64,000 bases of DNA from Vicinamibacterales bacterium (GCA_038319675.1 JBBQDM010000018.1:17839-81838), one strand, 5' to 3'; shown: positions 24,957 through 41,140, counted from the first letter of the stretch. Program-made: numbers and translations. Notes: generated by a model from the sequence alone, not told the origin.

Positions 24957-24960
24957 ATGT

Positions 24961-25004: not shown

Positions 25005-25016
25005 TATCTGGACTCC

Positions 25017-25733: not shown

Positions 25734-25737
25734 GCCC

Positions 25738-26274
25738 ATGAGGCGCCGCACGATGACCGACGGAGAACGACGACTCGATGAGCTGGTGGACATGATCGTC
25801 CTCACGCACCACAACTATGCGCGACGGGCGATTCCCGACATTGTCGGACGCCTGGAGGTTCTGGTGGCGCTCACGGCCGGCGGACAGCCGGAGCTGGCGC
25901 TCATCCTTCAGACATTCGAACATCTCGCGGCTTCACTCGCACATCACCTCGACAAGGAGGAGCATCTAATCTTTCCCTACATCCGTGACCTGGCACGGGC
26001 GGACGCCGCGAAGGCGTCCTTGCCACCAGGGCCGTTCGGGACGATCGCCAACCCTCTCCGCCTGATGGAACACGAACACCGGGACGTGCTGCGGACACTC
26101 GACTGTCTTCGCGCCCTGACTCATCACTACCGGCAGCCGTCAGTCGACCTTCCCGGACTCGCCGACTGTTATCACGCGCTGCGCCGATTCGACGCCGATC
26201 TCCGGGCACACGTCCTCATCGAGGAACATGAGTTGTATCCCCTTGGCCTCGAACTTGAAGCCCGGCTGACGTAG
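25738..26274 (+). CDS. Hemerythrin/RIC-like di-iron protein lacking the N-terminal DFCCGG domain
   Basis: THHNY, HLDKEEHLIFP, PLRLMEHEH, HVLIEEHELYP. Confidence 0.8.
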   Translation: MRRRTMTDGERRLDELVDMIVLTHHNYARRAIPDIVGRLEVLVALTAGGQPELALILQTFEHLAASLAHHLDKEEHLIFPYIRDLARADAAKASLPPGPFGTIANPLRLMEHEHRDVLRTLDCLRALTHHYRQPSVDLPGLADCYHALRRFDADLRAHVLIEEHELYPLGLELEARLT

Positions 26275-26368
26275 AGTCCAGAGCACCGGGCTCAGGGTGC
26301 CATCCCCACGTGATCGAGAACAGCCCGTCAACGCTGTGATCGCCGCCAGATGCGATAGAGTGCTCGCG

Positions 26369-27064
26369 ATGCAACGCCCGGATCCGGACCTGCTCGCCAA
26401 GATTCCGGTCTTCCGGCGGGTCCTGCCGGACGACCTCGCGCGGATTGCCGCGGTCTCATACCTGCGCGACTACGACCGAGGCGACCCACTCTTTGACGAA
26501 GGCGACTCCTCAGACTTCTTCTACATTGTCGTCACCGGGCGCGTGAAGGTGTTCAAGCGGGCGCCGGACGGCCACGAACGTATCCTTGAAATTTTTGGCG
26601 CGGGTGGACTGGTCGGCGCCGTAGCCGCGTACGAGTCCCGGCCGTACCCGGCCGCCGCCACAGCCATCGAAGCGGCGAGTTGCCTGCTCACCCCGTCCCC
26701 CGACTTTTTCGCCCTTCTGGAATCCCAGCCGACCCTGGTGCGCGGCCTGCTGGGCAGTCTGTCGATCCGTCTGATGGAGTTGACGTCGAGACTCGCCGAA
26801 CTGACGGGAGGCCGCGTGGACACCCGGTTCGCCCGCCTCTTTCTGAAGCTGGCGGACCAGATGGGCCGGCCGGAGCGCGGCGGAATCTTCGTGCCGATGG
26901 TGCTGTCGCGCCAGGAGCTCGCGGACCTGACGGGTACCACCATCGAGACCTGCATCCGCATCATGAGCCGGTGGAACAAGGACAACGTCCTGCACACGGG
27001 GAAGGACGGCTTTGTGATTCTCGACCGGACCGCGCTCGAAGAACTCGCCGCCCACGGACACTGA
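26369..27064 (+). CDS. Crp/Fnr family transcriptional regulator (DNR/NnrR-like, no FNR Fe-S cysteine motif)
   Basis: cNMP-binding fold (LFDEGD, VTGRVKVFK, YPAAA) and HTH SRQELADLTGTTIETCIR. Confidence 0.92.
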   Translation: MQRPDPDLLAKIPVFRRVLPDDLARIAAVSYLRDYDRGDPLFDEGDSSDFFYIVVTGRVKVFKRAPDGHERILEIFGAGGLVGAVAAYESRPYPAAATAIEAASCLLTPSPDFFALLESQPTLVRGLLGSLSIRLMELTSRLAELTGGRVDTRFARLFLKLADQMGRPERGGIFVPMVLSRQELADLTGTTIETCIRIMSRWNKDNVLHTGKDGFVILDRTALEELAAHGH

Positions 27065-27071: not shown

Positions 27072-27923
27072 TCAGAGATCCGCGCGGCGGACGCGCACGG
27101 CGGCGATCGCGAGCGGCAGCACAATCCAGGCGACGACCGAGGCCACAAGTGTCAACGCCGCCCCCGTCGTCCCGCCTGTCATCCGCAGGAACGCGAGGGA
27201 TGCCGCACCGAAGGCTGTCGTGCCTTCAACCGTGAGCAGCGTGCCCGTTCTGACAGCGTCAACCGGATTCATGATCGCGGCCACCATCAGGAGGCGGGAC
27301 GCGGCGCCCGATCGCAGCAGTGACGCCGCTCCGAGTGCCGCCACGTCGAACAACACGACCGCGGCGAACCAGATCACGAGCGCGACCGCGAGGTGGTGGG
27401 CGCGCTGCAGGCTCGTGGAGCCGGCCGTGATGGCAGCCGCGACGGCCAGAAAGACCACGGTCAACACACACGAGCCGACCACGACGCCGAGGTAGCCAAA
27501 CACGCCGTCACTGCCGGCACGCTGAAAGATCAGGAGCCCGGCGGCGCCGAAGCCGACCGCCTGCGCCGCGAGCAACGCCAGGCACAGTCCCGCGAGCTGG
27601 CCGAACAACACGACGGTGCGCGGCACCGGCTGCGAATACAGCAACTGCGCGGCCCCCGGCTCCGGCGTCAGCGCCATCACACCAAACACAAGCGCTGTGA
27701 GCGGCACCAACAGCAGCACCAATTCGACCAACGACGCCGCCGTTCGGGAAAAATCCTGCGTCCCGCTGCCGCCGCTCAACACATACCCGGACGTCGCCAC
27801 GGCGAACGCCAACGCGGCAAACACCACCGTGAATGTCTGCGTCCACCGCGAACGAATCGAGAGCCGCAATTCCTGCTGCGCGCACAACGTGAAGGCCATC
27901 ACCGGTCCTGCCTGCTTCGCCAC
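27072..27923 (-). CDS. nosY: NosY ABC permease
   Basis: ASLVELVLLLVPL, LLYSQPV, MNPVDAVR; last gene of the nos operon. Confidence 0.85.
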   Translation of the reverse strand: MAKQAGPVMAFTLCAQQELRLSIRSRWTQTFTVVFAALAFAVATSGYVLSGGSGTQDFSRTAASLVELVLLLVPLTALVFGVMALTPEPGAAQLLYSQPVPRTVVLFGQLAGLCLALLAAQAVGFGAAGLLIFQRAGSDGVFGYLGVVVGSCVLTVVFLAVAAAITAGSTSLQRAHHLAVALVIWFAAVVLFDVAALGAASLLRSGAASRLLMVAAIMNPVDAVRTGTLLTVEGTTAFGAASLAFLRMTGGTTGAALTLVASVVAWIVLPLAIAAVRVRRADL

Positions 27924-28375
27924 CGCGTCGGCACCACCGCGTCGATCGGCACGGACAGGGTGTCTGTCAGAGCGGTGTCAGCATCCCGTGATTCCGTCGT
28001 CGCGTGTGCCACCAGATGCGACGCCATGGGCGTGGCGAGCGCCAGCGCGCGGGTGTACACCGCCGCGTCGGCCCGCACCCACTCACGCGTTCGATGGTCC
28101 GTGACAAAGATGACGCCGCCCTCCGGCCCAGGCGTGGTGGACGTGAGATACGAATGCAGACATCCGAGGTCGTCGAAGAACGTCGGCAGTTCGCCAGACA
28201 CCAGCAGTTGCGACGCGAACTCCGGCTGCGACACGGTCATGCGGCAGAACGCGCAGGACTCCTGCCCCACTGCGAGCGGCGCCGGTTCGACATCGCCACG
28301 GCTGCACGCAGCACCCAGCACGACCACCCAGAGCACCAGCGCACCCGCGCACCCGCGCACCCGGCCACTATTCAT
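27899..28375 (-). CDS. nosL: NosL copper chaperone lipoprotein
   Basis: Lipobox LGAAC, CAFCRM, FDDLGCL, TPMASH. Confidence 0.88.
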   Translation of the reverse strand: MNSGRVRGCAGALVLWVVVLGAACSRGDVEPAPLAVGQESCAFCRMTVSQPEFASQLLVSGELPTFFDDLGCLHSYLTSTTPGPEGGVIFVTDHRTREWVRADAAVYTRALALATPMASHLVAHATTESRDADTALTDTLSVPIDAVVPTRWRSRQDR

Positions 28376-29270
28376 GCTGCCCCCCCACAAGTTCCCGATA
28401 GAACGCATCGAGCCGGCCTTCTTCTGCGGACCACCCGCGAATGGTCACGCCGTCATTCCGCAACGCATCAAGCACTGCCAGACGGACAGCAGCGGAGCCG
28501 GGCACGATGACCTGATCCGCCGAGGTCACGACGCCCGGTGCGAGCGCTCGCACTCGCGCCAGCACCTCATCGCTGATCGCACCGACAGTGACCTTCATCA
28601 CGCCACGATTGGCCAATTCAGTTGTCAGTTCACGTTCGGTGAACGACGCGACAAGCCGACCGCCCACCATGACGAGGAAGCGGTCGGCGAGGCGTTCGAC
28701 ATCACCCATCTGGTGCGAGCTGAAGAACACCGTCTGCCCTTCGCTGCGGCGCGCCTCGATGACCGCGTAGAACGCAGCCGTGCCGTCTGGATCGAGCGCA
28801 GCTGTCGGTTCGTCGAGCAGCAGGATTGGCGCCTGCGCGGCCATCGCCACGGCCAGGCCGAGCCGCTGCGTCATCCCGCCGGAGTACGTGCCGACCGTGC
28901 GGCGGCTCGAACCATTCAGGCCGGTGAGCACCAGCACGTCATGGAGACGGTCGGCACTGCGGCCCCGGAGCTTGCAATAGAACTCCGCCACTTCGCGGCC
29001 CGTCAGCGACTCGGGAAACGTCACACGCTGAGGCAGAAAGGAACAGACGTGCCGCGCGTCGGCCTCGAGTGACGACCGTCCCGGATTCCCGAGCAGCACC
29101 CGACCCGAGGTCGGACGGATGAGCCCGGCCGCCGCCTTGATGCTCGTCGTCTTGCCCGATCCGTTGGGCCCCAACAGCGCGACGACTTCTCCGGCCGCAA
29201 TAGTGACGCTGCAGTCGCACACCGCCTTGACCGCGCCGTAGGTCTTGGTGAACCCGTCGTAGGTGATCAT
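28368..29270 (-). CDS. nosF: NosF ABC ATPase
   Basis: GPNGSGKT, YSGGMTQR, LLDEPT; between nosD and nosL. Confidence 0.88.
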   Translation of the reverse strand: MITYDGFTKTYGAVKAVCDCSVTIAAGEVVALLGPNGSGKTTSIKAAAGLIRPTSGRVLLGNPGRSSLEADARHVCSFLPQRVTFPESLTGREVAEFYCKLRGRSADRLHDVLVLTGLNGSSRRTVGTYSGGMTQRLGLAVAMAAQAPILLLDEPTAALDPDGTAAFYAVIEARRSEGQTVFFSSHQMGDVERLADRFLVMVGGRLVASFTERELTTELANRGVMKVTVGAISDEVLARVRALAPGVVTSADQVIVPGSAAVRLAVLDALRNDGVTIRGWSAEEGRLDAFYRELVGGQHE

Positions 29271-30631
29271 CGGCGCCTCCCGGCGTGAAACACCGCCAGG
29301 CCTGCGATCACGCCAAGCGCCGAGAGCGCGAGTCCCGCCAGGGTCGTGGCCCGCTCGGGCGACGGCATCGACGGAATCGCGCCACGGTCGGGCGCGTGCC
29401 TGAGCGGACGGGCATCCACCACCTCAATCCGCCGGAGCACCGGAAACGTGGTCTCGGCTCTGGCCAACACCCGCGCGCCGATCCCCTGCGCGAACAGGTC
29501 GGCGGCCACCAGATTCCCACGCAGGTGATCGAATACGTTCGACAGGCGATAGGGCCGATCGCGGACGCCGTCGCCGTCCAGATCCGGCTCGTTGAATTCC
29601 GACCAGTAGTTGCCGTCGAAGACCGTATCGGTCCGGCGGCCGACCAGCAGCAACGGGGCCAGATTGCCGACAAACGTGTTGCCTTCGAACCGGCTCGTCT
29701 GCGACGACGCGTAGACGACGACGGCGACGTCGGAGGCGGCTACGAGGTTGCGGCGAAAGACATGCCGGACCGCGCCGTCGATGAACAATCCGCGCTCGTT
29801 ATCCGCCACCAGATTGTCTTCGGCGAGCACGTCTTCGCAGTCCTTGAGCAGCAGGCCGACGGACGCAAAGCCACGATTGTGCAGGAACCGGTTTCTCGCG
29901 AACGACACCCGGCGCGAGTACATCAGCGCGGCACCGGCCGCCCCGTGGGCAAAAGTGTTGTCCTCGAACCGGTTGTCGTTCGAGTTCATATAGTGCAGCC
30001 CGTATCGGACATCCCGGACATCGTTGCCCCTGATCACGCCGTGGTGGGACGACTGGATGTAGAAGCCGTCACGGGAAAACCGCACGCGGATGTTCTGCAG
30101 CGTGAAGCGCTGCGTGTTCCAGACGTGCACTCCTGAGCCTTGCTCGCCGGGCAGCCGCCCCTCGATCCCCGTGATTTCGCATCCCTCCACACGCGCATCG
30201 TCGGCCTCGCGCAGGTAGATGCCGAACAGGGACCGGACAATTGTGCAGTCACGGATCACGACATGTGTCGCCGCGACATGGATGCCGGACGTATCCCGCG
30301 CCAGGTTGCCACCCAGCCGGCCGTCGATGGCGAATCCTTCAATCGTCACGTGGTCCGCCCGGACCCGAATCACGCTGCCATTCCCCGAACCGACCAGCCG
30401 CGGGCGGCCATGGCCGACGAGGTGCACGGACGTGTGGATGAACAGATCACCCGTGTAGGTGCCGGCCTCCACATCGATGCGATCGCCGGGCCGCGCTGCG
30501 TCGATTCTGGCCTGCAGCGGCGACCGGTCGGACGGGGGCGGGTGCCCCTCCAGCGTGCCGACCGTGACGACCATGTCCGGGACGGTCGGCTGCTGGATCG
30601 CCAGCGCCACCACCAGAAGCAGGGTCGTCAT
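29267..30631 (-). CDS. nosD: NosD periplasmic beta-helix maturation protein
   Basis: RYGLHYMNS, GAALMYS, GNYWS..DLDGDGVRDRPY; signal peptide from ATG 30631. Confidence 0.92.
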   Translation of the reverse strand: MTTLLLVVALAIQQPTVPDMVVTVGTLEGHPPPSDRSPLQARIDAARPGDRIDVEAGTYTGDLFIHTSVHLVGHGRPRLVGSGNGSVIRVRADHVTIEGFAIDGRLGGNLARDTSGIHVAATHVVIRDCTIVRSLFGIYLREADDARVEGCEITGIEGRLPGEQGSGVHVWNTQRFTLQNIRVRFSRDGFYIQSSHHGVIRGNDVRDVRYGLHYMNSNDNRFEDNTFAHGAAGAALMYSRRVSFARNRFLHNRGFASVGLLLKDCEDVLAEDNLVADNERGLFIDGAVRHVFRRNLVAASDVAVVVYASSQTSRFEGNTFVGNLAPLLLVGRRTDTVFDGNYWSEFNEPDLDGDGVRDRPYRLSNVFDHLRGNLVAADLFAQGIGARVLARAETTFPVLRRIEVVDARPLRHAPDRGAIPSMPSPERATTLAGLALSALGVIAGLAVFHAGRRR

Positions 30632-31266
30632 GTCACTGACTCGGACCCGGACTCGGGCTGGCTGCGCCACGCCAGCACCAGCGCGACAAGCACCAGCAGC
30701 CCGGCACCGGCCATCAAATACGTGCCCATCTGCGGATACGAATACACGTCGAAGTTCGCGATCGCCTTGTGCCCGAACATCGGGGGCGTGAAGCCCGGTA
30801 CTTTCACCGCGGCCGTCGGTGCGAGGTCATGGCCGTACCGATACAGTTTGTAGCCGAACGACCACATCGAGAAGCCGCCGAAGTAGAAGAACATCACCGC
30901 ACCGTCCACGAACTCCTTCATCGTGCCGAACACCACCGCGCGCAGAAACAGCAGCGCCAGTCCGCCGATCGCAAATGGCATCCACTTGAACTCGGTGAAG
31001 TCCTCGACGGCCAGGTCACGCATGCCGATGTAGTGGTTGAGGAGGTTGATCTCCTTCAGGTCCTGCCCGTTGTTGCCCCCCACGAGAGCGTCGGCGTAGA
31101 TGTCGAGCCGCAGCGCATCCGGATACTGCGGCGCGAACATCGTCAAATTCCAGAGCGGAAACATCAAGGCGACAACGACGAACACGGCCGCGAGCAGGAA
31201 GCAGGCGCGCGGCGCCGCGCCGACGGGTTGATGGAGACGACGGGCGGTGCGTTCAAGGTGGGTCAT
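30628..31266 (-). CDS. NosB-like membrane protein typical of clade II nos clusters
   Basis: PLWNLTMFAPQYP, INLLNHYIGM, YRYGHDL, PPMFGHK; four TM segments; follows nosZ. Confidence 0.75.
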   Translation of the reverse strand: MTHLERTARRLHQPVGAAPRACFLLAAVFVVVALMFPLWNLTMFAPQYPDALRLDIYADALVGGNNGQDLKEINLLNHYIGMRDLAVEDFTEFKWMPFAIGGLALLFLRAVVFGTMKEFVDGAVMFFYFGGFSMWSFGYKLYRYGHDLAPTAAVKVPGFTPPMFGHKAIANFDVYSYPQMGTYLMAGAGLLVLVALVLAWRSQPESGSESVT

Positions 31267-31278
31267 GGTTCACCCAAC

Positions 31279-31317
31279 GAGCTCGGAGGCGATTGTCACA
31301 CAATCGCCTCCGAGCTC
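31279..31317 (-). terminator. Perfect 18-bp stem-loop immediately after nosZ (partial terminator or mRNA stabiliser)
   Basis: GAGCTCGGAGGCGATTGT-CAC-ACAATCGCCTCCGAGCTC; no U-tract on the minus strand. Confidence 0.7.
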
Positions 31318-31322
31318 ATTTG

Positions 31323-33197
31323 TTAACGAGGTTTCACGATCAGGTAGCTCTGCATCTCCTGATGGAGGGCCGAGCAGAAGTTCGTGCAGTAGTACGGGAA
31401 CACGCCCCGTTTCGCCGTGAAGGTCACGGTCTTGGTTTCACCCGGGTCGACCACGATGTTGATGTTGTAGTCGAGCAGGCCGAACCCGTGCAGTTCATCC
31501 GTGGTCTGTTCAATGTTGGTGATCGCCACCGTCACGATGTCCCCTTCCTGAAGCTCGAAGTTCATGGGTGTGAACGTCGACCGGACGGCCACCATCTTGA
31601 CAGTGACACGGTTGCCCTGGCGGGTGACGCCGGCATCGGCCACATCCCAGATCGCCAGCGGATGTTTGTTCTCCTCCTTCGGGTACACCTCAATCGGTTT
31701 GAGCTTGTCGGCCTTGATGATCTGCGCGTAGTGCGGCTCCGGTTCCGTAAAGGCGTCGTACAGCAGCTTCATCTTTTCCTCGCCGATGTCGATCAACTGC
31801 ATGGACTCTGGTTGCGACGGACCAACACTCAGATGCCGTCCGTGGGACAGCTTGTTCAACGACACCAGGTACCCGCCATCCGGGCTTACCGTGTCGCCCT
31901 CCGCCGTTGACAGGTGGCCCACCGCGTAGGACACCGGCACCTTGTCGATGACCTTCCACTCGCCGATACGCCACGATGCGATCGCGCTGTCAACAAAAAG
32001 CGACGTGTAGGCCATACCGTCCGGCCCGAACTGCGTGTGGAGCGGCCCGAGGCCGACCTCGACTTCAGCGTCCATGATCGATTCGTATTTGAGGACCGGG
32101 ATGCCGTCTTCCTCACCCTCGAAGTCCTTGTTGCGGATGGCCGTCTGCACCTTCTCGAAGTTGAAGGCCGTGGTGACGCCCTGCAGCTTGCCTGATCCGA
32201 TGATGTACTTGCCGTCAGGAGAGACGTCGACGCCATGGGGCGACTTGCCGCACGGCATCAGATACACGAGACCGGGGATCTTCTTCGGATCGAGCACGCG
32301 GACGCCTCCGATCATGTCGCCCTGGCCGGCCGCCGCGGCCTTGGCCGCCGCGCGCCAGTCCACCGCAGCGATGTAGTCACGGTCGCGCTGGCTGGCGGTG
32401 ACCTCGAGATTGCCGATCGCCCGTTCCGCGTTGTAGGCCGTCAGGAACATCCAGCCATCGGACGCCAGTTTGCCGGCGTCGCCGATGTCGTAATCGAAAG
32501 GCGGCATCAGGATCTGGAAGCCCATGTCCATGGTGCCGGTCTTTGGATCGACGGCCAGCGCGCCAATCACGCCCTTGTAGTCGCTGGCGTATTTATCGAT
32601 GGGCACGTAGGAGCCCTTCGGAATCGGAATCGAAAACCGCGAGGCATACATCACGTACTCGCTGTTGGGCGTGATGAACGACGACCCGTGGTTGCCTGAC
32701 ACGTTCGGGATCGGCCCGTAGATCTGCTTCGTCTTGAAGTCGCGCAGGTCAATCCGGGCCACCCGTCCGTTCATCTCGTTGATGAACAGCCAGCGGCCGT
32801 CATAGTCACCGTTGGTCTCCGACAGCGCGGGGTGGTGCGCATCACCCCAGGTCAGACCGCCGAGCATCTCCTTCGACTCGTCGTCGAACCCGTACCCGGT
32901 CGCGGGGTACGGCGTGAAGACGGGAATGGTCGACAAGTGGCGCATCGACGGCGCGCCGTAGACGTAGACGTTGCCGGAATGCCCCCCCGACGCAAAGAGG
33001 TAGTACTCGTCCAGGTCTCCTGGCGCGACGTACGTCTTCTGCGCCGCGATGGCGATGTCGGACGAACCCGCCGCCGACCGGCGGCCCGTGTCCGGCGTGC
33101 TCGGGGCACATGCGCTGTAGGCAATCATCAGGAAGGCGCCGGCGCCCAGCGCCAGTCCCTTGCCTGCTCGTGTCAGTGAACTCCTGCTCATGGTCAT
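31323..33197 (-). CDS. nosZ: Nitrous-oxide reductase, clade II (Sec-type signal)
   Basis: CuZ histidines in DAHH, GNHG, SPHG, PLHT, VGHL, EPHY; CuA HGF...CTNFCSALHQEM; no twin-arginine; lipobox-like YSAC. Confidence 0.97.
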   Translation of the reverse strand: MTMSRSSLTRAGKGLALGAGAFLMIAYSACAPSTPDTGRRSAAGSSDIAIAAQKTYVAPGDLDEYYLFASGGHSGNVYVYGAPSMRHLSTIPVFTPYPATGYGFDDESKEMLGGLTWGDAHHPALSETNGDYDGRWLFINEMNGRVARIDLRDFKTKQIYGPIPNVSGNHGSSFITPNSEYVMYASRFSIPIPKGSYVPIDKYASDYKGVIGALAVDPKTGTMDMGFQILMPPFDYDIGDAGKLASDGWMFLTAYNAERAIGNLEVTASQRDRDYIAAVDWRAAAKAAAAGQGDMIGGVRVLDPKKIPGLVYLMPCGKSPHGVDVSPDGKYIIGSGKLQGVTTAFNFEKVQTAIRNKDFEGEEDGIPVLKYESIMDAEVEVGLGPLHTQFGPDGMAYTSLFVDSAIASWRIGEWKVIDKVPVSYAVGHLSTAEGDTVSPDGGYLVSLNKLSHGRHLSVGPSQPESMQLIDIGEEKMKLLYDAFTEPEPHYAQIIKADKLKPIEVYPKEENKHPLAIWDVADAGVTRQGNRVTVKMVAVRSTFTPMNFELQEGDIVTVAITNIEQTTDELHGFGLLDYNINIVVDPGETKTVTFTAKRGVFPYYCTNFCSALHQEMQSYLIVKPR

Positions 33198-34405
33198 CGC
33201 TCCTTCTCCGCCTGCTGCTTCAAATAGATCTCGAACGCTTCACGCAATTTCTGCACCGCGATGGCTTTTTGTTCGTCGGTGAGAATGATCTGGCGCGACA
33301 ACACCACCGACATCGTGCCGGTCGGCTCGCGCAGGAAGTCGTCGATGGTGCGACCGAACCGCGACTGCACGTCCTCAACCGCGTTCGACAGGTCGGGACC
33401 GATCTGGGCCGGGGCCCTCACGCCGTAGACCTGGATCGAGTGGCACGTCGCGCAGCCGGTTTCCACGAACCACGCACCAGGACCGGTGCGCATCCGTTCC
33501 TCCTCAGCCGCCTGCTCTGGCGTCGGCACGTCGGTGCGCGGCGCGCCCGCCAGATAGGCGGCGGGAATGTGCGACGGCTTCCACGACAACACCAGCATGG
33601 CCAGCGCCTGCGCCTGTTCGGTGTTGAACCCGAAGGTCGGCATGGTCGAGTCGGTGGACACTTCCTTGGGGTTCTTGAAGTGCGCGACATGCCACGCGAA
33701 CGCAGTCTTCTGGCCGGAGAGCCGCGAATAGTCGTACTGCTCGGGCGCCTTTTCGCCGACGCGTGTCAGGTCGGGTCCGATCCGGCCCCCCCGGTTGTTG
33801 ATTACGTGACAGGCGCGGCATCCCTTCTCGTCCACCAACCGCTTGGCGAGGTTGATCGCGTCGGCGCCCCTGGTCTCGCGGTCATACCGATGACAGCTGT
33901 TGCAGTTCATCTGGATGAGCGCGCCCTTGTTGCCTGAAAGGGAGTAATCCTCACCCAGCGCGCGACTGAGCAGCGGCTCCTCCCAATGCGCAATCTCGCC
34001 GTGCGCTTCGAGCACGTCCACCGCCCACCCCTGGCCGCCGTGGCACGCCGTGCACCCGAACTTCTCGATCGGATGTCCCTTCAACGGCTCAAGTGGATGC
34101 GTGCGGAAGGGTTCCTCGCCGTTCTCGAACCCCTTCCACGACACCGCCTGGTGGCAGGTGATGCACCGGTCGGCACGGCCAAGATCCGCCACCCAGATCT
34201 GCTGCAGGCCCGTCGTCACCGCGGCGGCGCGTTCTTCCCCGAACTTCTGCGCGACCTCGGTCTTGAAGGCCGCCTGGTAATACCGCCAGTCGTGATCCCG
34301 ATCGCTCGCGAAGAACAGGACACACGACAACACCAGGAACACGCCGATGATGGCCAGCGTGGGACGGTCGATGCGGGGGTAGGGAGAATTCGTGCGTTGT
34401 TCCAT
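33194..34405 (-). CDS. Membrane-anchored pentaheme cytochrome c
   Basis: Five CxxCH (CITCH, CTACH, CNSCH, CRACH, CATCH); N-terminal TM; ATGA overlap with nosZ. Confidence 0.9.
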   Translation of the reverse strand: MEQRTNSPYPRIDRPTLAIIGVFLVLSCVLFFASDRDHDWRYYQAAFKTEVAQKFGEERAAAVTTGLQQIWVADLGRADRCITCHQAVSWKGFENGEEPFRTHPLEPLKGHPIEKFGCTACHGGQGWAVDVLEAHGEIAHWEEPLLSRALGEDYSLSGNKGALIQMNCNSCHRYDRETRGADAINLAKRLVDEKGCRACHVINNRGGRIGPDLTRVGEKAPEQYDYSRLSGQKTAFAWHVAHFKNPKEVSTDSTMPTFGFNTEQAQALAMLVLSWKPSHIPAAYLAGAPRTDVPTPEQAAEEERMRTGPGAWFVETGCATCHSIQVYGVRAPAQIGPDLSNAVEDVQSRFGRTIDDFLREPTGTMSVVLSRQIILTDEQKAIAVQKLREAFEIYLKQQAEKER

Positions 34406-34408
34406 GGC

Positions 34409-35743
34409 TCAAATCCTCGATGGCAGGCTCGGCCAGGTTTCCCACGGCCAGAAGAACTCCCAGTACGGCCCGCGCATCTCCATGCCGATGTAGGTCAGCA
34501 ACAGAATCGCGACCATCACCACAATGAACACGATGTTCTGGGTGCGGCGCGCGGGCGAGAACCACTCGCCCGCGGCCTGCCGCGGGCTGCGATCGAGCCA
34601 CGGCCACACGGTCAGCACGCCAATGAGCACCCCCGGCAGAATCACGCCGCCAATAAACGCCCCGTTGATGGTGAAGCTGCCGAGGTGAATCGTCGTGTCG
34701 GTGACGATTTCCTGCAGCCAGAGGAAGTACCAAGGCGCCTTGGCCGGATTCGGCGTGATGAGCGGGTTCGCCGGTTCCTCGAGCGGAGACGCAATGAACA
34801 CCGACAGAATGCTGATCACTGCGATGGTGCCAAGCGTGGCGATCATCGCCCGCCGGGCCAGATCGGGCACGGCATTCACCGTCGTATTGGCAGCCGTGAG
34901 CGTCTTCGCCGTCACGGTCGGCGCGGTGCCTCGCGCGACCCCGAGCAGCGTGTACGTCTTGGTCGGTGTCGGCGCCACGTCCCGCGGCGTCTCCAGCAGT
35001 TCCTCGCGATCGGCGCGCGCCAGGCCGCCGTCCTTCCGCACCCGCCACATGTGATACCCGAACAGCGCGGCCACGGCGCCGGGCAACACGACAATGTGCA
35101 GGACGTAGAACCGGATCAGCGTCGCCTGTTCGATCTCCCGGCCGCCGATCAGCAGTTCGCGCACCGACGGCCCGACCCAGGGGATCGCCGACGCGATGTT
35201 GGTGCCGACCGTCACGGCCCAGAACGCCAGCTGGTCCCACGGCAGCAGATACCCCGTGAACGACAGGAACAGCGTCAGCAGCAGCAGCACGACGCCGATC
35301 ACCCAGTTCCACTCCCGGTGCTGGTTACGGCCGACGCCATTTTTGTACGCGCCGGTGAAGAACACACGCGCCAGATGCAACACGACCGTGATGACCATCC
35401 CGTGTGCCGCCACACGGTGCACGGAGCGCAGCCATCGGCCGTACGAGACCACGTACTCGATGTCCTTGACGGACTGATACGCCCGTTCCACCGACGGCAC
35501 ATAAAGGAACAGCAACGGCAGACCCGACAACACCAGCAGCAGAAACAATGCCGCGGTGATCGTGCCGAGCCAGAAGGAATACGTCCACGCCATCGAAGCC
35601 TTCGAGACCTTCGCCGGCATGGCGTGCAGGAGGAAGTTCGACGTGATCGCGTCACCCGCGTCGCGGTCGGAGCGGGGACGGAGGCTCCAGAACCGGCGGG
35701 GCCGCACACCGGGCGCTTCAGGATGCTGCTGAGCCATGGCCAT
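34409..35743 (-). CDS. Cytochrome b of a Rieske/cyt b complex (b6-like domain fused to subunit-IV-like domain)
   Basis: RSVHRVAAHGMVITVVLHLARVFFTGAY, FTGYLLPWDQLAFWA, FYVLH...YHM, PAKAPWYF in place of PEWY. Confidence 0.93.
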   Translation of the reverse strand: MAMAQQHPEAPGVRPRRFWSLRPRSDRDAGDAITSNFLLHAMPAKVSKASMAWTYSFWLGTITAALFLLLVLSGLPLLFLYVPSVERAYQSVKDIEYVVSYGRWLRSVHRVAAHGMVITVVLHLARVFFTGAYKNGVGRNQHREWNWVIGVVLLLLTLFLSFTGYLLPWDQLAFWAVTVGTNIASAIPWVGPSVRELLIGGREIEQATLIRFYVLHIVVLPGAVAALFGYHMWRVRKDGGLARADREELLETPRDVAPTPTKTYTLLGVARGTAPTVTAKTLTAANTTVNAVPDLARRAMIATLGTIAVISILSVFIASPLEEPANPLITPNPAKAPWYFLWLQEIVTDTTIHLGSFTINGAFIGGVILPGVLIGVLTVWPWLDRSPRQAAGEWFSPARRTQNIVFIVVMVAILLLTYIGMEMRGPYWEFFWPWETWPSLPSRI

Positions 35744-35746
35744 GTC

Positions 35747-36244
35747 TCACAACGTCAATCGAAAATCACGGCCGACTTCCTCGGCCAGGTCCACCACGAG
35801 TTGCCCGTCATCGGCCGCCACCGACAGCCGGTACCAGGAAAGCGGCTTCGGCGCAGGGCCCGAGGTGTTGGTGCCGTCACCGGCGTAGTGCGACCCGTGA
35901 CACGGGCAGCTGAACTGATGGGTCAGGCGCAGCGGCTCACCGCCCACCGTCACGGTCTCCGGCTTGGACAGCGCTTCGGCACGCACGGTGCAGCCCAGAT
36001 GCGTGCAGACCGCCGACACGGCGTGGAACGTGTTGCCGTTGCGGAAGATGAACAGCCGCTCGTCGGCGAGAAACTTCAGGCCGTCCGGAAACTCCGCCGG
36101 GGGGCCCAGCTTCACCGTCGTCGGCGCGTCGTAGGAGACGTTGGGCGCCAGCGACCGCAGCGACGCCACGCCTTGCGCGCCCAGCGCACAGACACCGGCG
36201 CCGGTGCCCAGCTTGATCAGGAACTCGCGACGATCGCTACTCAT
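35747..36244 (-). CDS. Rieske [2Fe-2S] protein with Tat signal
   Basis: RREFL; CTHLGC and CPCHGSHY; GPAPKPL. Confidence 0.95.
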   Translation of the reverse strand: MSSDRREFLIKLGTGAGVCALGAQGVASLRSLAPNVSYDAPTTVKLGPPAEFPDGLKFLADERLFIFRNGNTFHAVSAVCTHLGCTVRAEALSKPETVTVGGEPLRLTHQFSCPCHGSHYAGDGTNTSGPAPKPLSWYRLSVAADDGQLVVDLAEEVGRDFRLTL

Positions 36245-38166
36245 GACACCTCCGCCCAACTGTCAGTAATCGAAAACTTCTCCATCGTCATCGCCCCAGT
36301 GGGGCACCGGATGGCGCACAAGCCGCACCGGATGCATCGCTCGTCGTCCTTGATCAACGCGGTGAGCGGTAGAGGCGTCTCCCCCGCCCGCGCAGCAACG
36401 GCCTCGCGCTCACTCTCGGGGAACGCGACTTCGTCCATCGGCACAAAGGCCAGGCAGAACTCCGGGCAGATGTCGACGCAGCGATTGCACAACACGCAGA
36501 GCTCGGGGTCGTAAATGGTCTGCACGTGGCAGACGAGGCAGCGCGCGGCCTGCGCCTTCGCGGCCTCCGGGCCGTACCCGGTCTCGACTTCGGCGATCCC
36601 TGTGCGACGACCGACGTCGAGCGTCGGCGCGGCCACGCGATCGAGGTACTCAAAGCCGGCGGCCATCTGATAGGTCGAGGTCGGCAGGGCCTCGATCGCG
36701 AGGTGCGTCTCGATGCGCGCCCGATGCGCGGTCAGGAACTGATGCATCGACCGCGCGGCCAGCTTGCCGTTGGCGACTGCCTGGATGAGATTTCGGGGAC
36801 CAAACGCCACATCGCCGCCCGCGAATACTCCGGGAGCGCTGGTGGCCAGCGTGACCGGATCGACGCGAATGGTCCCCGAAGGTTGAAGATCGACACCGTC
36901 GGCCGGCGTCAGGAATGCGAGGTCCGGCTGCTGGCCGATGGCCAGGATGCAGGCGTCAGCCTCGACAACGACGACATCCTCGTCGTCATAGATCGGAGCA
37001 AAGCGACCGCCCTCGTCAAACACCGATCGGACCGCGCGCAATTCGACGGAGGTCAGGTGGCCATCGGCCCCGACGAAGCGGCGCGGACCGCGGCGGGTCA
37101 GGAAGAGCACGCCTTCCTTCTGCGCCTCCTCAAACTCGTCGTGACCCTGCATCGTGCGCAACACCGGCATCTCGTCGAAGTGCTCGAGCGACACCATCGT
37201 CACCTCAGCCGCGCCTCCCCGAAGCGCAGCGCGGGCGGAGTCAATGGCCTCCTTGGCCCGGGCATCGGCGGCACCCTCGAGCGCGTCAAGCTCGTCTTCC
37301 CGGCCCACGCGCAATGCGGTACGGGCGGCGTCGAACGCGACAAAACCGCCGCCAATGACGACGACCCGGCGCCCGAGGTCCATCCGGAAGCCGCGGTTCA
37401 CGTTCAGCAGGTAGTCCACGGCTTTGACGACGCCGTCGAGTTCCACGCCAGGCACCTGCAAGTCGCGGCCGCGCGAGACACCGACCGAAAGGAAGACGGA
37501 CACAAAGCCTTCCGCCTTGAGGTGCGAGAGACCGAAACCAGCCGACAAGGGCGTGTGGAGTTTGAGCGTGACACCGAGCGCGAGAATCTTGTCGATCTCA
37601 GCGCGCAGGAGGCTGCGGGAGAGCCGGTACTCCGGAATGCCGTAGCGCATCATGCCGCCGGGCTCATCACCGGCCTCGAACACCGTGACCTGATGGCCAA
37701 GCAACGCCAGATCATGCGCCGCAGAGAGGCCAGCGGGTCCGGCGCCGATGACGGCCACCTTCCGCCCGGGCACCGGCCCGGCCGCGTGGATCTGTGACCC
37801 CAGCGGCAACTGATCGATATAGCGATTGCCGTCACGCACACCGTATGGCCGCAGTTCATCCTGCGTGTCCGGGCGGACAGACTCGGCGCCGTACTGTTCC
37901 GTCACATACCGTTTCAGCGCACGAATCGACACCGGCGCGTCAATCGACCCGCGTCGGCATGCGTCTTCACACGGGGCGGCGCAGACTCGTCCGCAGACGG
38001 ACGCAAAGGGGTTCGGGGCCCGCGCCACCAAATAGGCCTCGCGATCGTGACCCTCAGCGATGAGCTGTACGTAGCGACCCGCGTCCGTCTGGACGGGGCA
38101 GCCCGTCTGACACTTGACCTGTCCCTTCCAGTGCGCGAGATCCGGGAGCCGGACGTGAACCGCCAT
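36241..38166 (-). CDS. Cytoplasmic FAD/NAD(P)H Fe-S oxidoreductase (GltD/NfnB/DsrL-like) with C-terminal 2x[4Fe-4S] ferredoxin domain
   Basis: CQTGCP, NPFASVCGRVCAAPCEDAC, GAGPAG, GMMRYGIPEYRL, GGGFVAFD, FAGGD, RCLVC, CVLCNRCVDICP, CIRCGLCAIRCP; no signal peptide. Confidence 0.9.
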   Translation of the reverse strand: MAVHVRLPDLAHWKGQVKCQTGCPVQTDAGRYVQLIAEGHDREAYLVARAPNPFASVCGRVCAAPCEDACRRGSIDAPVSIRALKRYVTEQYGAESVRPDTQDELRPYGVRDGNRYIDQLPLGSQIHAAGPVPGRKVAVIGAGPAGLSAAHDLALLGHQVTVFEAGDEPGGMMRYGIPEYRLSRSLLRAEIDKILALGVTLKLHTPLSAGFGLSHLKAEGFVSVFLSVGVSRGRDLQVPGVELDGVVKAVDYLLNVNRGFRMDLGRRVVVIGGGFVAFDAARTALRVGREDELDALEGAADARAKEAIDSARAALRGGAAEVTMVSLEHFDEMPVLRTMQGHDEFEEAQKEGVLFLTRRGPRRFVGADGHLTSVELRAVRSVFDEGGRFAPIYDDEDVVVVEADACILAIGQQPDLAFLTPADGVDLQPSGTIRVDPVTLATSAPGVFAGGDVAFGPRNLIQAVANGKLAARSMHQFLTAHRARIETHLAIEALPTSTYQMAAGFEYLDRVAAPTLDVGRRTGIAEVETGYGPEAAKAQAARCLVCHVQTIYDPELCVLCNRCVDICPEFCLAFVPMDEVAFPESEREAVAARAGETPLPLTALIKDDERCIRCGLCAIRCPTGAMTMEKFSITDSWAEVS

Positions 38167-38175
38167 GACGAGTGC

Positions 38176-38218
38176 ACGGTACGCGCCGCGAGGGTAGGCC
38201 CGTTATGACGCCGGTCAT
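38176..38218 (-). promoter_or_regulatory. Operator ATGAC-N4-GTCAT with -10 TACCGT heading the oxidoreductase-bc-nos operon
   Basis: Perfect palindrome ATGACGCCGGTCAT 38205-38218, centre 30.5 bp before minus-strand TACCGT (38181-38176). Confidence 0.7.
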
Positions 38219-38330
38219 ACGCAAACAGCTGATGTCAGGCGAGCGCAATCATCAGGCCACGCACCACAATCGCCCACCAGCGATGCACCCAGTGCACGGT
38301 GAGCGGAGCGGTGTCAGAGGTCGGCGCGGT

Positions 38331-39401: not shown

Positions 39402-39457
39402 ATGACGCCGACCATATGACGACGGTCATAGTCCCGGCGAGGCGCCGACGATAGGGT
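39402..39457 (+). promoter_or_regulatory. Operator ATGAC-N4-GTCAT (plus adjacent degenerate copy) with -10 TAGGGT
   Basis: ATGACGACGGTCAT 39416-39429, centre 29.5 bp before TAGGGT 39452; ATGACGCCGACCAT 39402-39415. Confidence 0.7.
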
Positions 39458-41138: not shown

Positions 41139-41140
41139 CA

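What the first reader, a model, noticed from the sequence alone, without database searches (positions are those of the whole stretch)
27072..38218. Clade II nosZ operon headed by its own NAD(P)H flavo-Fe-S oxidoreductase, Rieske protein, cytochrome b and pentaheme cytochrome c
Seen: ten co-oriented genes with tight coupling (ATGA overlaps at 36241, 33194, 30628 and 29267; 3-nt gaps around cyt b) and one operator-bearing promoter. The first gene has no signal peptide and carries GltD/NfnB-type Fe-S, FAD and nucleotide-binding motifs plus a 2x[4Fe-4S] ferredoxin tail. No nosR, nosX/apbE, nosG or nosH is in the window. Known: clade I uses NosR, and Wolinella-type clade II uses NosGH/C1/C2 together with the Rieske/cyt bc complex. 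Rieske/cyt b complexes co-encoded with NAD(P)H oxidoreductases are best known from anammox bacteria, where electron bifurcation to NAD(P) was proposed. Inference: a dedicated N2O-respiratory complex in which quinol oxidation sends one electron via Rieske and pentaheme cyt c to NosZ, while the cyt b branch exchanges electrons with cytoplasmic NAD(P)(H) through the ferredoxin tail. That would mean either N2O-driven reverse electron transport or a direct NADH-to-N2O wire. Cyt b/c and Fe-S genes have been noted in clade II clusters before; the flavoenzyme coupling is what I do not recall being characterised.
Basis: partly seen in the sequence, partly recalled or inferred. Interest (0 to 1): 0.88.

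Follow-up and report, generated by a model that had tools for sequence, protein, structure and literature searches.

The report
NADH-linked bc complex feeding N2O reductase
A ten-gene nitrous-oxide-reduction operon starts with a cytoplasmic NAD(H)-binding flavo-iron-sulfur protein placed directly before its own Rieske/cytochrome b complex; many soil bacteria share this layout, and it resembles the unproven NAD(P)H-making complexes of anammox bacteria.

Summary
Ten tightly coupled minus-strand genes (27072-38166) encode an NfnB/GltD-like flavo-Fe-S protein with a 2x[4Fe-4S] tail ("oxr"), a Rieske protein, a fused cytochrome b6/subunit IV, a membrane-anchored pentahaem cytochrome c, Sec-type (clade II) NosZ and NosB-like/D/F/L/Y. 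A conserved Crp/Fnr-type operator lies in front. The order is kept in every related locus with enough DNA (nosZ 29/29 and 36/36 in two sets). By record titles these come from Acidobacteriota, Anaeromyxobacter and a Longimicrobiales MAG. The nos-linked oxr forms one well-supported group. Sister cassettes (oxr-Rieske-cyt b-multihaem c) stand alone or precede a periplasmic NXR-type molybdoenzyme. The Rieske protein is closest, among all PDB chains, to the two anammox Rieske proteins of NAD(P)-oxidoreductase-bearing complexes. It carries the Ser/Tyr pair that raises the potential; the genome's second, housekeeping Rieske has Gly/Phe there. The genome makes menaquinone, has two NuoD-bearing loci, and gave no NosR/NosH-type match. 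Best reading: a NosZ-dedicated Rieske/cyt b complex with a cytoplasmic NAD(H) module, probably splitting menaquinol electrons between N2O and NAD+. Binding and direction are inferred, not shown. The gene appears in print only as a generic "Fe-S" gene, and cyt b/NAD(P)-oxidoreductase co-occurrence has been noted in general terms. I rate it a new variant of a known kind.

The parts
38204..38219 (-). Crp/Fnr-type operator TATGAC-N4-GTCATA, 52 nt before the oxr start codon
   Evidence: this extended palindrome occurs only 2 times in the genome (ATGAC-N4-GTCAT 8 times, 1.4 expected); a relaxed site lies upstream of oxr in 42 of 47 orthologous loci, mostly at -45 to -65.
36241..38166 (-). oxr: cytoplasmic NfnB/GltD-like FAD/NAD(H) protein with four predicted [4Fe-4S]-type clusters (two in the Fer4_20 part, completed by C543/C546, and two in the C-terminal ferredoxin domain)
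   Evidence: Invariant Cys 19, 23, 58, 62, 66, 70, 543, 546, 557, 560, 563, 567, 611, 614, 617, 621. Residues 509-549 align with the N-terminal segment of NfnB (5jca_L 7-48). Single copy in the genome.
35747..36244 (-). Rieske [2Fe-2S] protein with a Tat signal; box I CTHLGC, box II CPCHGSHY
   Evidence: ATG at 36244 overlaps the oxr stop (ATGA). The ORF list gives an upstream TTG at 36259.
34409..35743 (-). Cytochrome b, a fused b6-like and subunit IV-like protein. It has four haem His (109, 123, 216, 231), W58 in place of the haem cn Cys, Qo motif APWY, and an n-side insert at 241-290
33194..34405 (-). Membrane-anchored pentahaem cytochrome c
31323..33197 (-). Sec-type (clade II) nitrous oxide reductase NosZ
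31276..31320 (-). Perfect 21-bp RNA hairpin in the nosZ-nosB spacer
   Evidence: -40.8 kcal/mol, z -7.5, 0 of 200 shuffles as stable; 38 of 60 orthologous spacers fold at -25 kcal/mol or lower.
30628..31266 (-). NosB-like membrane protein (no family match; three KD19 segments at or above 1.6, a fourth seen by eye)
   Evidence: Conserved in the same position in 29/29 and 34/34 loci.
29267..30631 (-). nosD
   Evidence: ATG at 30631 gives an ATGA overlap with nosB.
28368..29270 (-). nosF (ABC ATPase)
27899..28375 (-). nosL (copper chaperone lipoprotein)
27072..27899 (-). nosY (ABC-2 permease)
26297..27064 (+). Crp/Fnr-family regulator without an Fnr-type Cys cluster; candidate reader of the operator
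   Evidence: The assignment to the operator is an inference.
39415..39430 (.). Second copy of the operator, between the histidine kinase gene (38331-39377, -) and a radical-SAM/CopD-like/ScdA-like gene set (39476-41917, +)

Best explanation
The operon encodes a NosZ-dedicated Rieske/cytochrome b complex that carries a cytoplasmic NAD(H)-binding flavo-Fe-S subunit (oxr).

Proposed mechanism:
1. Menaquinol is oxidised at the Qo site.
2. One electron goes to a high-potential Rieske cluster, then through the membrane-anchored pentahaem cytochrome c to periplasmic NosZ.
3. The other electron crosses the membrane through the two b haems and leaves on the cytoplasmic side through four Fe-S clusters to FAD, reducing NAD+.
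4. The very exergonic N2O branch pays for the uphill NAD+ branch, as proposed for the anammox complexes Kuste4569-74 and Kustd1480-85.

Shown here: gene content, cofactor motifs, tight coupling, the operator, conservation, and the type of Rieske protein.

Inferred: that oxr docks on cytochrome b, that the nucleotide is NADH, and the direction of flow.
For: 1. Coupling and conservation.
- oxr overlaps the Rieske gene by ATGA.
- In loci with enough DNA downstream of oxr the order is always kept. Set 1 (L001-L056): Rieske 44/44, cyt b 39/39, cyt c 34/34, nosZ 29/29, nosY 26/26. Set 2 (L125-L175 plus L178): 49/49, 43/43, 41/41, 36/36, 27/27.
- In a sample of 401 genomes of the window's phylum, 17 of the 41 other nosZ-bearing genomes have oxr about 5 kb upstream on the same contig. 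These are exactly the genomes whose NosZ is 63-81% identical to the window's (coordinates compared by eye).
- In a second phylum, 13 of 47 nosZ-bearing genomes have it, again exactly those with NosZ at 76-78% identity.

2. The nos-linked oxr is one side of a branch with support 100 and length 0.99 (23 of 42 rows).

3. oxr is as conserved as the core subunits. Example L039: oxr 68%, Rieske 71%, cyt b 67%, cyt c 67%, NosZ 78%, against NosD/F/L/Y at 48-59%.

4. Rieske protein.
- The best PDB hits are the anammox proteins 9rk4 (3e-18) and 9rk3 (1.5e-17), against 5e-9 for b6f PetC. Their identity as Kuste4569 and Kustd1480 comes from PMC12954380.
- Box II is CPCHGS-x-Y in 45 of 45 nos-linked Rieske proteins. 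The same genome's second Rieske has CPCHGGIF.
- PMC12954380 (passages) reports +303 and +335 mV for the anammox proteins. It also cites losses of about 130 and 65 mV when Ser and Tyr are mutated in yeast.

5. Quinone and alternatives.
- The genome has MqnA/D (menaquinone by the futalosine route).
- It has two NuoD-bearing loci, taken as complex I.
- It has a separate housekeeping Rieske/cyt b.
- A wasteful NADH-to-quinone entry is therefore not needed.

6. oxr has the cofactor set needed for a wire from the membrane to NAD. There are 16 invariant Cys and FAD and nucleotide Rossmann motifs. This is the same count of four clusters that PMC12954380 models in Kuste4570.

7. oxr-linked cyt b proteins share an n-side insert with invariant K262-T263-Y264, L266 and G272. 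It is absent from the housekeeping cyt b.

8. The same cassette also precedes a periplasmic NXR-type enzyme, another high-potential N-oxide couple, in all 62 loci with at least 7 kb downstream (64 of 80 loci overall).
Against: - No experiment and no structural model ties oxr to cytochrome b.
- The anammox mechanism itself is a proposal without biochemical proof (PMC12954380, abstract and discussion passages).
- The window's cyt b differs from the anammox ones. It lacks the haem cn cysteine (W58) and is fused rather than split.
- The invariant His40, which I considered as ligand of an extra inter-monomer haem, also has a His counterpart in the housekeeping cyt b. It is therefore not specific.
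- The Ser/Tyr rule predicts Rieske potential only roughly. Kustd1480 lacks the Tyr yet has the higher potential.
- oxr-like proteins also occur without Rieske/cyt b (L109, L117, L121 and L120). The family can therefore work with other partners.
- The RNA data are weak. Contigs 95-97% alike from one study's metatranscriptomes cover oxr, cyt b, cyt c and nosZ. They bridge cyt b/cyt c and cyt c/nosZ but not oxr/Rieske.
Confidence: 0.5

Rival explanations
1. Same complex, opposite direction. oxr is an NADH input module. NADH reduces FAD, the Fe-S chain and the b haems. Electrons then reach menaquinone at an n-side site or otherwise feed the Rieske/cytochrome c/NosZ branch. The result is a self-contained NADH:N2O oxidoreductase, or a route for low-potential electrons to keep NosZ active, as is suggested for NosR in clade I.
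For: The genome gave no NosR/NosH-type match, so some other low-potential input to NosZ could be needed. The GltD/NfnB-type modules among the closest solved relatives bind pyridine nucleotides. That they take electrons from the nucleotide in several enzymes is recalled knowledge. All steps from NADH to N2O are downhill.
Against: The genome has two NuoD-bearing loci (taken as complex I) that would conserve the NADH-to-menaquinone energy. The Rieske protein is of the high-potential type while the housekeeping one is not, which a simple input module does not explain. The same cassette serves an NXR-type enzyme and stand-alone cytochromes, so a NosZ-specific activation role is unlikely to be its general function. 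No route from haem bP to the Rieske cluster is known other than through the quinol site (established Q-cycle knowledge).
Confidence: 0.22
2. oxr is co-regulated but is not a subunit of the bc complex. It would be a soluble NADH:ferredoxin-type or redox-balancing enzyme that is useful under N2O-respiring conditions, encoded in the operon for regulatory convenience.
For: oxr has no membrane segment. Members of the family occur without Rieske/cyt b (L109, L117, L121, L120). More distant relatives at 30-36% identity in Actinomycetota- and Desulfobacterota-labelled records have no bc or nos neighbours (0 of 24; 0 of 27).
Against: The position directly before the Rieske gene is invariant, with an ATGA overlap. 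The oxr-Rieske-cyt b-multihaem c order is kept across three different downstream contexts. The oxr tree splits by context. In Kuenenia the homologous-type subunit is reported to co-migrate with its Rieske/cyt b complex (stated in PMC12954380 and PMC5600118 citing de Almeida 2016; the original was not seen).
Confidence: 0.15
3. The complex is an ordinary Q-cycle bc complex for NosZ, and oxr only tunes or protects it. For example, it could drain over-reduced b haems to NAD+ as a safety valve, without a role in energy conservation.
For: All four b-haem ligands and a Qo-type motif are present. Nothing here excludes an n-side quinone site.
Against: The haem cn cysteine of b6-type complexes is missing. 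The strict conservation and high sequence constraint of a 641-aa five-cofactor protein is more than a safety valve would be expected to need; this is a weak argument.
Confidence: 0.08

Closest known systems
Anammox Rieske/cytochrome b complexes with an NAD(P) oxidoreductase subunit (Kuenenia Kuste4569-74 and Kustd1480-85; PMC12954380)
   Same: A cytoplasmic FAD/NAD(P) Fe-S protein is encoded inside a Rieske/cyt b operon together with a multihaem cytochrome c. The window's Rieske protein is closest to these two among all PDB chains and has the same Ser(/Tyr) pair. The oxr fold class is NfnABC-like with four clusters. The organism uses menaquinone.
   Different: The cytochrome b is fused and has no haem cn cysteine. 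The cytochrome c is pentahaem rather than hexa- or octahaem. The terminal enzyme is NosZ, encoded in the same operon. NADH rather than NADPH is predicted. The hosts are soil heterotroph lineages. I could not compare oxr or cyt b with the Kuenenia sequences directly, because none was in reach of the tools.
Wolinella-type clade II nos cluster (NosGH, NosC1/C2, NosB plus the housekeeping Rieske/cyt bc complex; Hein et al. 2017, seen only as a cited reference)
   Same: Sec-type NosZ, nosB after nosZ, nosDFYL, and dependence on a Rieske/cyt b complex for electron supply.
   Different: No NosG/NosH-type match was found anywhere in the genome. The Rieske/cyt b complex is encoded in the operon itself and carries the flavoenzyme.
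Clade II nos clusters drawn with 'Fe-S', Rieske ('S' or 'Rs'), 'cy-b' and 'cy-c' genes (legends of PMC11096178 Fig. 5, PMC11237620 Fig. 4, PMC13122619 Fig. 2)
   Same: The same classes of genes precede nosZ. Named Anaeromyxobacter records carry the identical ten-gene order (L127, L138).
   Different: In the passages I read, these papers call the gene only an iron-sulfur protein. I found no text on FAD, NAD(H), or a link to anammox-type complexes. Figures and supplements could not be seen, so I cannot confirm that their 'Fe-S' arrow is this gene.
NfnB / NfnABC / StnC NADPH modules (PDB 5jca, 4ylf, 9bov/9bp5, 8oh5, 9n5u)
   Same: The Fer4_20 two-cluster domain and the FAD and nucleotide Rossmann domains match (E 2.5e-73 to 1.4e-59). 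The following 2x[4Fe-4S] domain matches as in 9bov_A 609-671.
   Different: The N-terminal 'RCLxC' segment is moved behind the flavin domains. The Tyr-Arg-Arg of the NADPH site is Ser-Leu-Glu. No NfnA- or HydB-type partner is encoded; instead the gene sits in a membrane bc operon.
NosR of clade I (recalled as a membrane flavo-Fe-S protein that links the cytoplasmic side to NosZ)
   Same: A flavin-plus-Fe-S route associated with NosZ, which may connect cytoplasmic redox chemistry to the periplasmic enzyme.
   Different: There is no homology. The Fer4_5-type membrane Fe-S domain is not found in the genome. The flavin here is cytoplasmic FAD in a soluble protein.
Sister cluster found here: oxr-Rieske-cyt b-multihaem c followed by a periplasmic NXR-type molybdoenzyme
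   Same: The same four-gene cassette in the same order, with oxr 39-45% identical to the window's.
   Different: The terminal enzyme is NxrABC-like (alpha subunit against 7b04_B E 1.8e-246). The Rieske box II ends in Phe rather than Tyr (13 of 14 group-B loci).

Membership tests
Clade II (Sec-dependent) NosZ | Scores above the curated cut-off of the Sec-type NosZ model and higher than on the Tat-type model | tested here: met
   TIGR04246 884.5 bits (cut-off 625) against TIGR04244 435.4 bits.
Clade II (Sec-dependent) NosZ | No twin-arginine signal; CuZ and CuA ligand motifs present | tested here: met
   The N-terminus MTMSRSSLTRAGKG...YSAC has no RRxF motif. DAHH at 119 and C604-x3-C608-x3-H612-x2-M615 are present.
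Clade II nos cluster | nosB membrane protein gene directly after nosZ | tested here: inconclusive
   A 212-aa multi-pass membrane protein sits there and is conserved in 29/29 and 34/34 loci. It matches no Pfam or NCBIfam model, so identity with NosB rests on position and topology.
Rieske/cytochrome b complex | Rieske boxes CxHxGC and CxCHxS, and four bis-His haem ligands in cyt b | tested here: met
   CTHLGC and CPCHGSHY. H109, H123, H216 and H231 are invariant and align with the b6 ligands.
Rieske/cytochrome b complex | Canonical PEWY Qo motif | tested here: not met
   The motif is APWY, invariant in 31 sequences. The housekeeping cyt b of the same genome has PEWY. Variant Qo motifs are known in other lineages (recalled; PMC4122944 seen only in search listings).
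b6f-type cytochrome b | Cys that binds haem cn covalently (CxGG) | tested here: not met
   Cys35 of b6 aligns with W58. No Cys is present in that column in any of the 31 sequences.
NfnB/GltD-like flavo-Fe-S oxidoreductases | Fer4_20 domain plus FAD and pyridine-nucleotide Rossmann domains | tested here: met
   PF14691 66.7 bits and PF07992 106 bits, both above cut-off. PDB hits to NfnB-type chains at E 1e-59 or better.
NfnB/GltD-like flavo-Fe-S oxidoreductases | NADPH site with the Tyr-Arg-Arg motif after the second Rossmann strand | tested here: not met
   9bov, 8oh5, 9n5u and 4ylf show YRR where oxr has SLE. L327 and E328 are invariant. That this motif binds the 2'-phosphate is recalled knowledge.
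Anammox-type NAD(P)-linked Rieske/cyt b complex | NAD(P)-binding Fe-S flavoprotein gene inside the Rieske/cyt b/multihaem c operon | tested here: met
Anammox-type NAD(P)-linked Rieske/cyt b complex | Subunits related to the anammox ones | tested here: inconclusive
   For the Rieske protein this is met. oxr and cyt b could not be compared with Kuste4570/4571, because no anammox sequence of these was reachable. One 2.7-kb contig labelled Brocadiaceae carries a group-B oxr (L262), but that label is unverified.
Anammox-type NAD(P)-linked Rieske/cyt b complex | The oxidoreductase co-migrates with the membrane complex | not testable with these tools
   This needs complexome profiling or purification.
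NosR/NosH-type electron input | Membrane protein with a Fer4_5 (NapH/NosH/NosR) domain | tested here: not met
   PF12801: 0 matches in the own genome (48 candidates scored; genome listed as 100% complete).

The most novel reading that the evidence does not exclude
The complex replaces the Q cycle by quinol-based electron bifurcation. For every N2O reduced, two menaquinols are oxidised: two electrons go to NosZ and two make NADH. Complex I then re-oxidises the NADH.

By my own bookkeeping, which is inference and not a measurement, this would give about 8 H+ per 2 electrons delivered to N2O, against 4 for a Q cycle. It would let the cell harvest part of the roughly 1.4 V between menaquinol and N2O that a periplasmic, non-pumping NosZ otherwise wastes.

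The same module in front of NXR-type enzymes would make this a general way, found in many phyla, to couple high-potential periplasmic N-oxide reductases to low-potential cytoplasmic reductant. It could also explain higher growth yields in N2O reducers of the Anaeromyxobacter type.
Probability: 0.3. Interest if true: 0.85.

Novelty: new variant of a known kind. Interest (0 to 1): 0.68.

Why it matters
[quoted passage not shown] This operon type offers a concrete, testable mechanism for part of clade II.

It also moves the unproven anammox idea of an NAD(P)H-producing Rieske/cyt b complex into bacteria that have cultured representatives carrying the same ten genes: Anaeromyxobacter sp. PSR-1 and A. 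soli SG29 by record title. Deletion, membrane assays and purification should be far easier there than in anammox enrichments.

The operon type is common:
- 17 of 41 other nosZ-bearing genomes in the sampled phylum and 13 of 47 in a second phylum carry it.
- All 120 clusters listed for the oxr protein search are at least 72% identical to it, although only the best 120 were shown.

How these cells wire N2O reduction therefore bears on soil N2O budgets.

Tried and rejected
- **Complex prediction.** I submitted two copies of cyt b 36-444 plus oxr 486-641, each with its own alignment. The result was "no answer" (scores 0.02 and 0.00; mark 0.32). This is neither support nor evidence against binding. 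The job differs from the tool's calibration: only the ferredoxin tail was given and no cofactors.
- **Structure prediction of oxr.** No model and no fold search were obtained.
- **ESM Atlas.** It did not hold the window's oxr. With the stored homologue P0006, the nearest clusters were FAD/Fe-S oxidoreductases, mostly of Acidobacteriota, Pseudomonadota and Actinomycetota. This added nothing on anammox.
- **His40 of cyt b.** I considered it as ligand of an extra inter-monomer haem, like His43 of Kuste4571. I rejected it as a specific marker because the housekeeping cyt b also has a His there.
- **RNA evidence.** There were three metatranscriptome runs from one study, with shares of 0.08-0.17.
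  - The laid contigs are 95-97% alike, so they come from a relative and not this strain.
  - They bridge cyt b/cyt c and cyt c/nosZ and cover parts of oxr. Nothing lies over Rieske or the oxr/Rieske junction.
  - DNA carry-over cannot be excluded.
  - I do not count this as proof of co-transcription, and parts without cover say nothing.
- **Direct comparison with anammox sequences.** I looked for an anammox locus to compare oxr and cyt b directly. The search for related loci with single proteins reaches only close relatives. The alignment query returned 80 loci at 67% identity or more, with only one short Brocadiaceae-labelled contig.
- **Distant oxr relatives.** Loci L057-L080, L176, L177 and L179-L203 (30-36% identity) have no bc or nos neighbours. 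I left them out of the synteny counts.
- **Literature.** The ten full-text searches found no paper that describes the flavoenzyme at the head of a nos cluster or links nos clusters to NAD(P)-coupled bc complexes. Subscription papers (Sanford 2012, Hein 2017, Hein and Simon 2019, Dibrova 2013, Kartal 2013, de Almeida 2016) and all figures and supplements were out of reach and may bear on this.

Full report
**1. What is there**

Ten minus-strand genes fill 27072-38166.

- The first gene (36241-38166, 641 aa, here called oxr) has a Fer4_20 domain (residues 17-92), a Pyr_redox_2 FAD/nucleotide part (136-467) and two classical CxxCxxCxxxCP motifs (557-567 and 611-621). It has no hydrophobic segment and no signal peptide.
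- Next comes a Rieske protein with a Tat motif, then a fused cytochrome b6/subunit IV-like protein with seven hydrophobic segments.
- Then come a pentahaem cytochrome c with one N-terminal anchor and NosZ.
- NosZ is followed by a multi-pass membrane protein without family match in the nosB position, then nosD, nosF, nosL and nosY.
- NosZ scores 884.5 bits on the Sec-type model (cut-off 625) and has the DAHH and CuA motifs.

Read base by base, oxr/Rieske, cyt c/nosZ, nosB/nosD and nosD/nosF overlap by ATGA. Cyt b is flanked by 3-nt gaps. nosF/nosL and nosL/nosY also overlap. The only spacer is 56 nt after nosZ.

**2. Regulation**

- The palindrome TATGAC-N4-GTCATA lies 52 nt before the oxr ATG.
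- It occurs twice in the 4.13-Mb genome, both times here. The second copy is between the histidine kinase gene and a divergent radical-SAM/CopD-like/ScdA-like set.
- A relaxed form is found within 300 nt upstream of oxr in 42 of 47 orthologous loci, mostly at -45 to -65.
- A Crp/Fnr-family gene without an Fnr-type cysteine cluster lies just past nosY.
- oxr is therefore the first gene behind the conserved control site. That this regulator reads the site is inference.

**3. Conservation**

Set 1 (query: the window's oxr):
- The search returned 80 loci. 56 were at 64-93% identity, with titles almost all Acidobacteriota. 24 were at 30-34%.
- Among the 56, every locus with enough DNA downstream keeps the order: Rieske 44/44, cyt b 39/39, cyt c 34/34, nosZ 29/29, nosB 29/29, nosD 28/28, nosF 27/27, nosL 26/26, nosY 26/26.
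- None of the 24 distant loci has bc or nos neighbours.

Set 2 (query: an orthologue from a second phylum):
- Counts are 49/49, 43/43, 41/41, 36/36, 34/34, 32/32, 29/29, nosL 26/28 and nosY 27/27.
- By title this set includes Anaeromyxobacter sp. PSR-1, Anaeromyxobacter soli SG29, Anaeromyxobacteraceae MAGs and a Longimicrobiales MAG.

Genome samples:
- In an even sample of 401 genomes of the window's phylum, nosZ is in 42 and an oxr-family protein (E at most 1e-60) is in 89.
- Comparing coordinates by eye, 17 of the 41 other nosZ genomes have oxr about 5 kb upstream on the same contig. These are exactly the genomes whose NosZ is 63-81% identical to the window's.
- The three with 59-61% identity and the 21 with at most 52% lack it.
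- One of those three is the only other sampled genome of the window's family. There nosZ is preceded directly by an azurin-family cupredoxin gene. This matches the Luteitalea layout described in PMC13122619 (passages).
- In the second phylum, 13 of 47 nosZ genomes (of 251 sampled; the 47 include the unpublished G596) have NosZ at 76-78% identity. All 13 have oxr upstream; the other 34 do not.

The cassette-plus-nos unit is thus a discrete, widely spread nos cluster type.

**4. The cassette is a module**

I fetched 20 places in nosZ-less contexts where the oxr family scores 35-53% identity by the genome search.
- 15 have oxr-Rieske-cyt b-multihaem c in the same order, one has only a Rieske-like hit, and four have neither.
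- In five of the 15, the cassette is followed by a periplasmic type II molybdoenzyme. Its alpha subunit matches Kuenenia NXR subunit A full-length (7b04_B, E 1.8e-246). A Fer4_11 beta subunit, an EB_dh gamma subunit and a NarJ-like chaperone follow.
Titles span Acidobacteriota, Ca. Methylomirabilis, several Planctomycetota orders, Binatia and Verrucomicrobiae.
- In these 80 loci Rieske is found in 78, cyt b in 74, multihaem c in 67 and NxrA in 64. All 62 loci with at least 7 kb downstream have NxrA.
- In a quick maximum-likelihood tree of 42 oxr proteins, the 23 nos-linked ones are one side of a branch with SH-aLRT 100 and length 0.99. The careful tree search did not finish.

**5. What the subunits say**

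*oxr*
- Its best solved relatives are the NfnB-type NADPH modules: 9bov/9bp5, 9n5u, 8oh5, 5jca and 4ylf (E 2.5e-73 to 1.4e-59).
- Residues 509-549, including RCLVC, align with the N-terminal segment of NfnB. C543 and C546 therefore probably complete the two clusters of the Fer4_20 part.
- Together with the C-terminal ferredoxin domain this gives four clusters and 16 invariant cysteines.
- Where the NADPH modules have Tyr-Arg-Arg, oxr has Ser-Leu-Glu, with Leu-Glu invariant. An acidic residue at that place usually means NAD rather than NADP (recalled rule).

*Rieske*
- Its best PDB hits are 9rk4 and 9rk3 (3e-18 and 1.5e-17; b6f PetC 5e-9).
- PMC12954380 identifies these as Kuste4569 and Kustd1480, with potentials of +303 and +335 mV. 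It attributes high potential in part to a Ser/Tyr pair.
- All 45 of 45 nos-linked Rieske proteins have CPCHGS-x-Y. 13 of 14 group-B ones have CPCHGS-x-F.
- The same genome's second Rieske, next to a cyt b fused to a dihaem c, has CPCHGGIF and a PEWY Qo motif.

*Cytochrome b*
- It has the four haem histidines.
- Trp replaces the haem cn cysteine.
- The Qo motif APWY is invariant.
- An n-side insert of about 50 aa, with invariant KTY-x-L, is missing from the housekeeping protein.

**6. Genome background**

- The genome is listed as 100% complete and 4.14% contaminated.
- It has MqnA/D (the futalosine route to menaquinone), two NuoD-bearing loci and three haem-copper oxidase family genes.
- It has a weak NirK-like match below cut-off and only a weak partial Cytochrom_D1 (nirS-type) match of 30.7 bits, which I do not read as nirS.
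- It gave no Fer4_5 (NosR/NosH-type) match. Two ApbE genes lie elsewhere.

**7. Mechanism**

The best-supported reading is a NosZ-dedicated Rieske/cyt b complex with a cytoplasmic NAD(H) module. I favour the bifurcating direction: menaquinol gives one electron to Rieske, pentahaem c and NosZ, and one to the b haems, four Fe-S clusters, FAD and NAD+. My reasons are these:
- The Rieske protein is of the high-potential type in a menaquinone organism, while the housekeeping Rieske is not.
- The genome's two NuoD-bearing loci suggest complex I is available to take NADH to menaquinone, so a separate NADH entry is not needed.
- The same cassette also serves another high-potential periplasmic N-oxide enzyme.

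These are the arguments PMC12954380 uses for anammox. That mechanism is itself unproven.

Contact between oxr and cyt b, the nucleotide and the direction all remain inferences. I give the whole statement 0.5, the reverse (NADH input) 0.22, a non-subunit role 0.15 and a safety-valve role 0.08.

**8. What is known**

- Clade II nos clusters with Rieske, cyt b, cyt c and a generic 'Fe-S' gene are standard in published cluster comparisons (legends read).
- Dependence of clade II N2O respiration on a Rieske/cyt bc complex is known from Wolinella (Hein 2017; seen only as a reference).
- Dibrova et al. state that cyt b of their subfamily G co-occurs with large NAD(P)-binding, cysteine-rich oxidoreductases "in many other cases". 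They also state that a clade of long cyt b lies in large conserved operons of unknown function (PMC5600118, passages).
- In ten full-text searches I did not find the identification of the nos-cluster gene as an NfnB-like NAD(H) flavoprotein, its link to the anammox-type complexes, the contrast between the two Rieske types in one genome, or the sister NXR cluster as such.
- Figures, supplements and subscription papers were out of reach.

I therefore rate it a new variant of a known kind.

**9. Limits**

- The complex prediction gave no answer.
- The structure job did not finish.
- The RNA contigs come from a relative, from one study only, and do not cross the oxr/Rieske junction.
- Organism names come from record titles, many of them MAG labels.
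- Unnamed handles are cited as such.

Noticed in passing
L119:2998-15717 (also L112, L113, L118, L124, L204-L283): There is a widespread conserved cluster: oxr-Rieske-cyt b-heptahaem c followed by a periplasmic NXR-type molybdoenzyme. The alpha subunit matches Kuenenia NXR 7b04_B at E 1.8e-246, and beta, EB_dh gamma and NarJ-like genes follow. Record titles span Acidobacteriota, Ca. Methylomirabilis, Planctomycetota, Binatia and Verrucomicrobiae. NxrA is present in all 62 loci with at least 7 kb downstream.
   Followed up: partly
window 31276-31320 (- strand): A perfect 21-bp hairpin lies in the 56-nt nosZ-nosB spacer (-40.8 kcal/mol, z -7.5), with no U-run after it. 38 of 60 orthologous spacers also fold strongly. 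It may set apart the mRNA for the respiratory genes from that for the maturation genes.
   Followed up: partly
window 39415-39430 and 39476-41917: The second copy of the operator stands before a divergent set of genes: radical SAM (39476-40732), CopD-like (40725-41138) and ScdA/hemerythrin di-iron repair protein (41213-41917). This is probably the same regulon.
   Followed up: no
G000:C19:4695-6715: A housekeeping Rieske/cyt b lies elsewhere in the genome. Its Rieske has CPCHGGIF (no Ser, no Tyr). Its cyt b is 520 aa, has a PEWY motif and a fused C-terminal dihaem cytochrome c, and is 30% identical to the nos-linked one.
   Followed up: partly
L121:7923-14830, L109, L117: oxr-like genes (42-43% identity by tblastn) occur without Rieske/cyt b. 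In L121 the neighbours are DsbD_2, a FixG/CcoG-like Fe-S protein and a copper P-type ATPase, which looks like a cbb3-oxidase assembly context.
   Followed up: no
L284:7156-9624 (G028:C46): In the only other sampled genome of the window's family, nosZ (61% identical) is preceded directly by an azurin/plastocyanin-family gene instead of the cassette. Two different electron inputs to NosZ therefore exist within one family.
   Followed up: partly
window 22284-26274: A TonB-dependent receptor (22284-24956), a 240-aa protein without family match (24969-25691) and a hemerythrin-domain protein (25732-26274) lie beside the Crp/Fnr regulator gene.
   Followed up: no
G357:C2:1089625-1091540; G043:C8:38631-39803; L050, L053, L056: In a few genomes the nos-linked oxr or its neighbours appear split or interrupted: two pieces in G357, one TAA in G043, and fragmentary matches in three long-read MAG loci. 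These may be decaying copies or assembly errors.
   Followed up: no
G000:C31:3678-4601: A NirK-like multicopper protein scores 162 bits, below the 296-bit cut-off. PF02239 (nirS-type) gave only a weak partial match (30.7 bits). Whether the organism makes N2O itself is left open.
   Followed up: no
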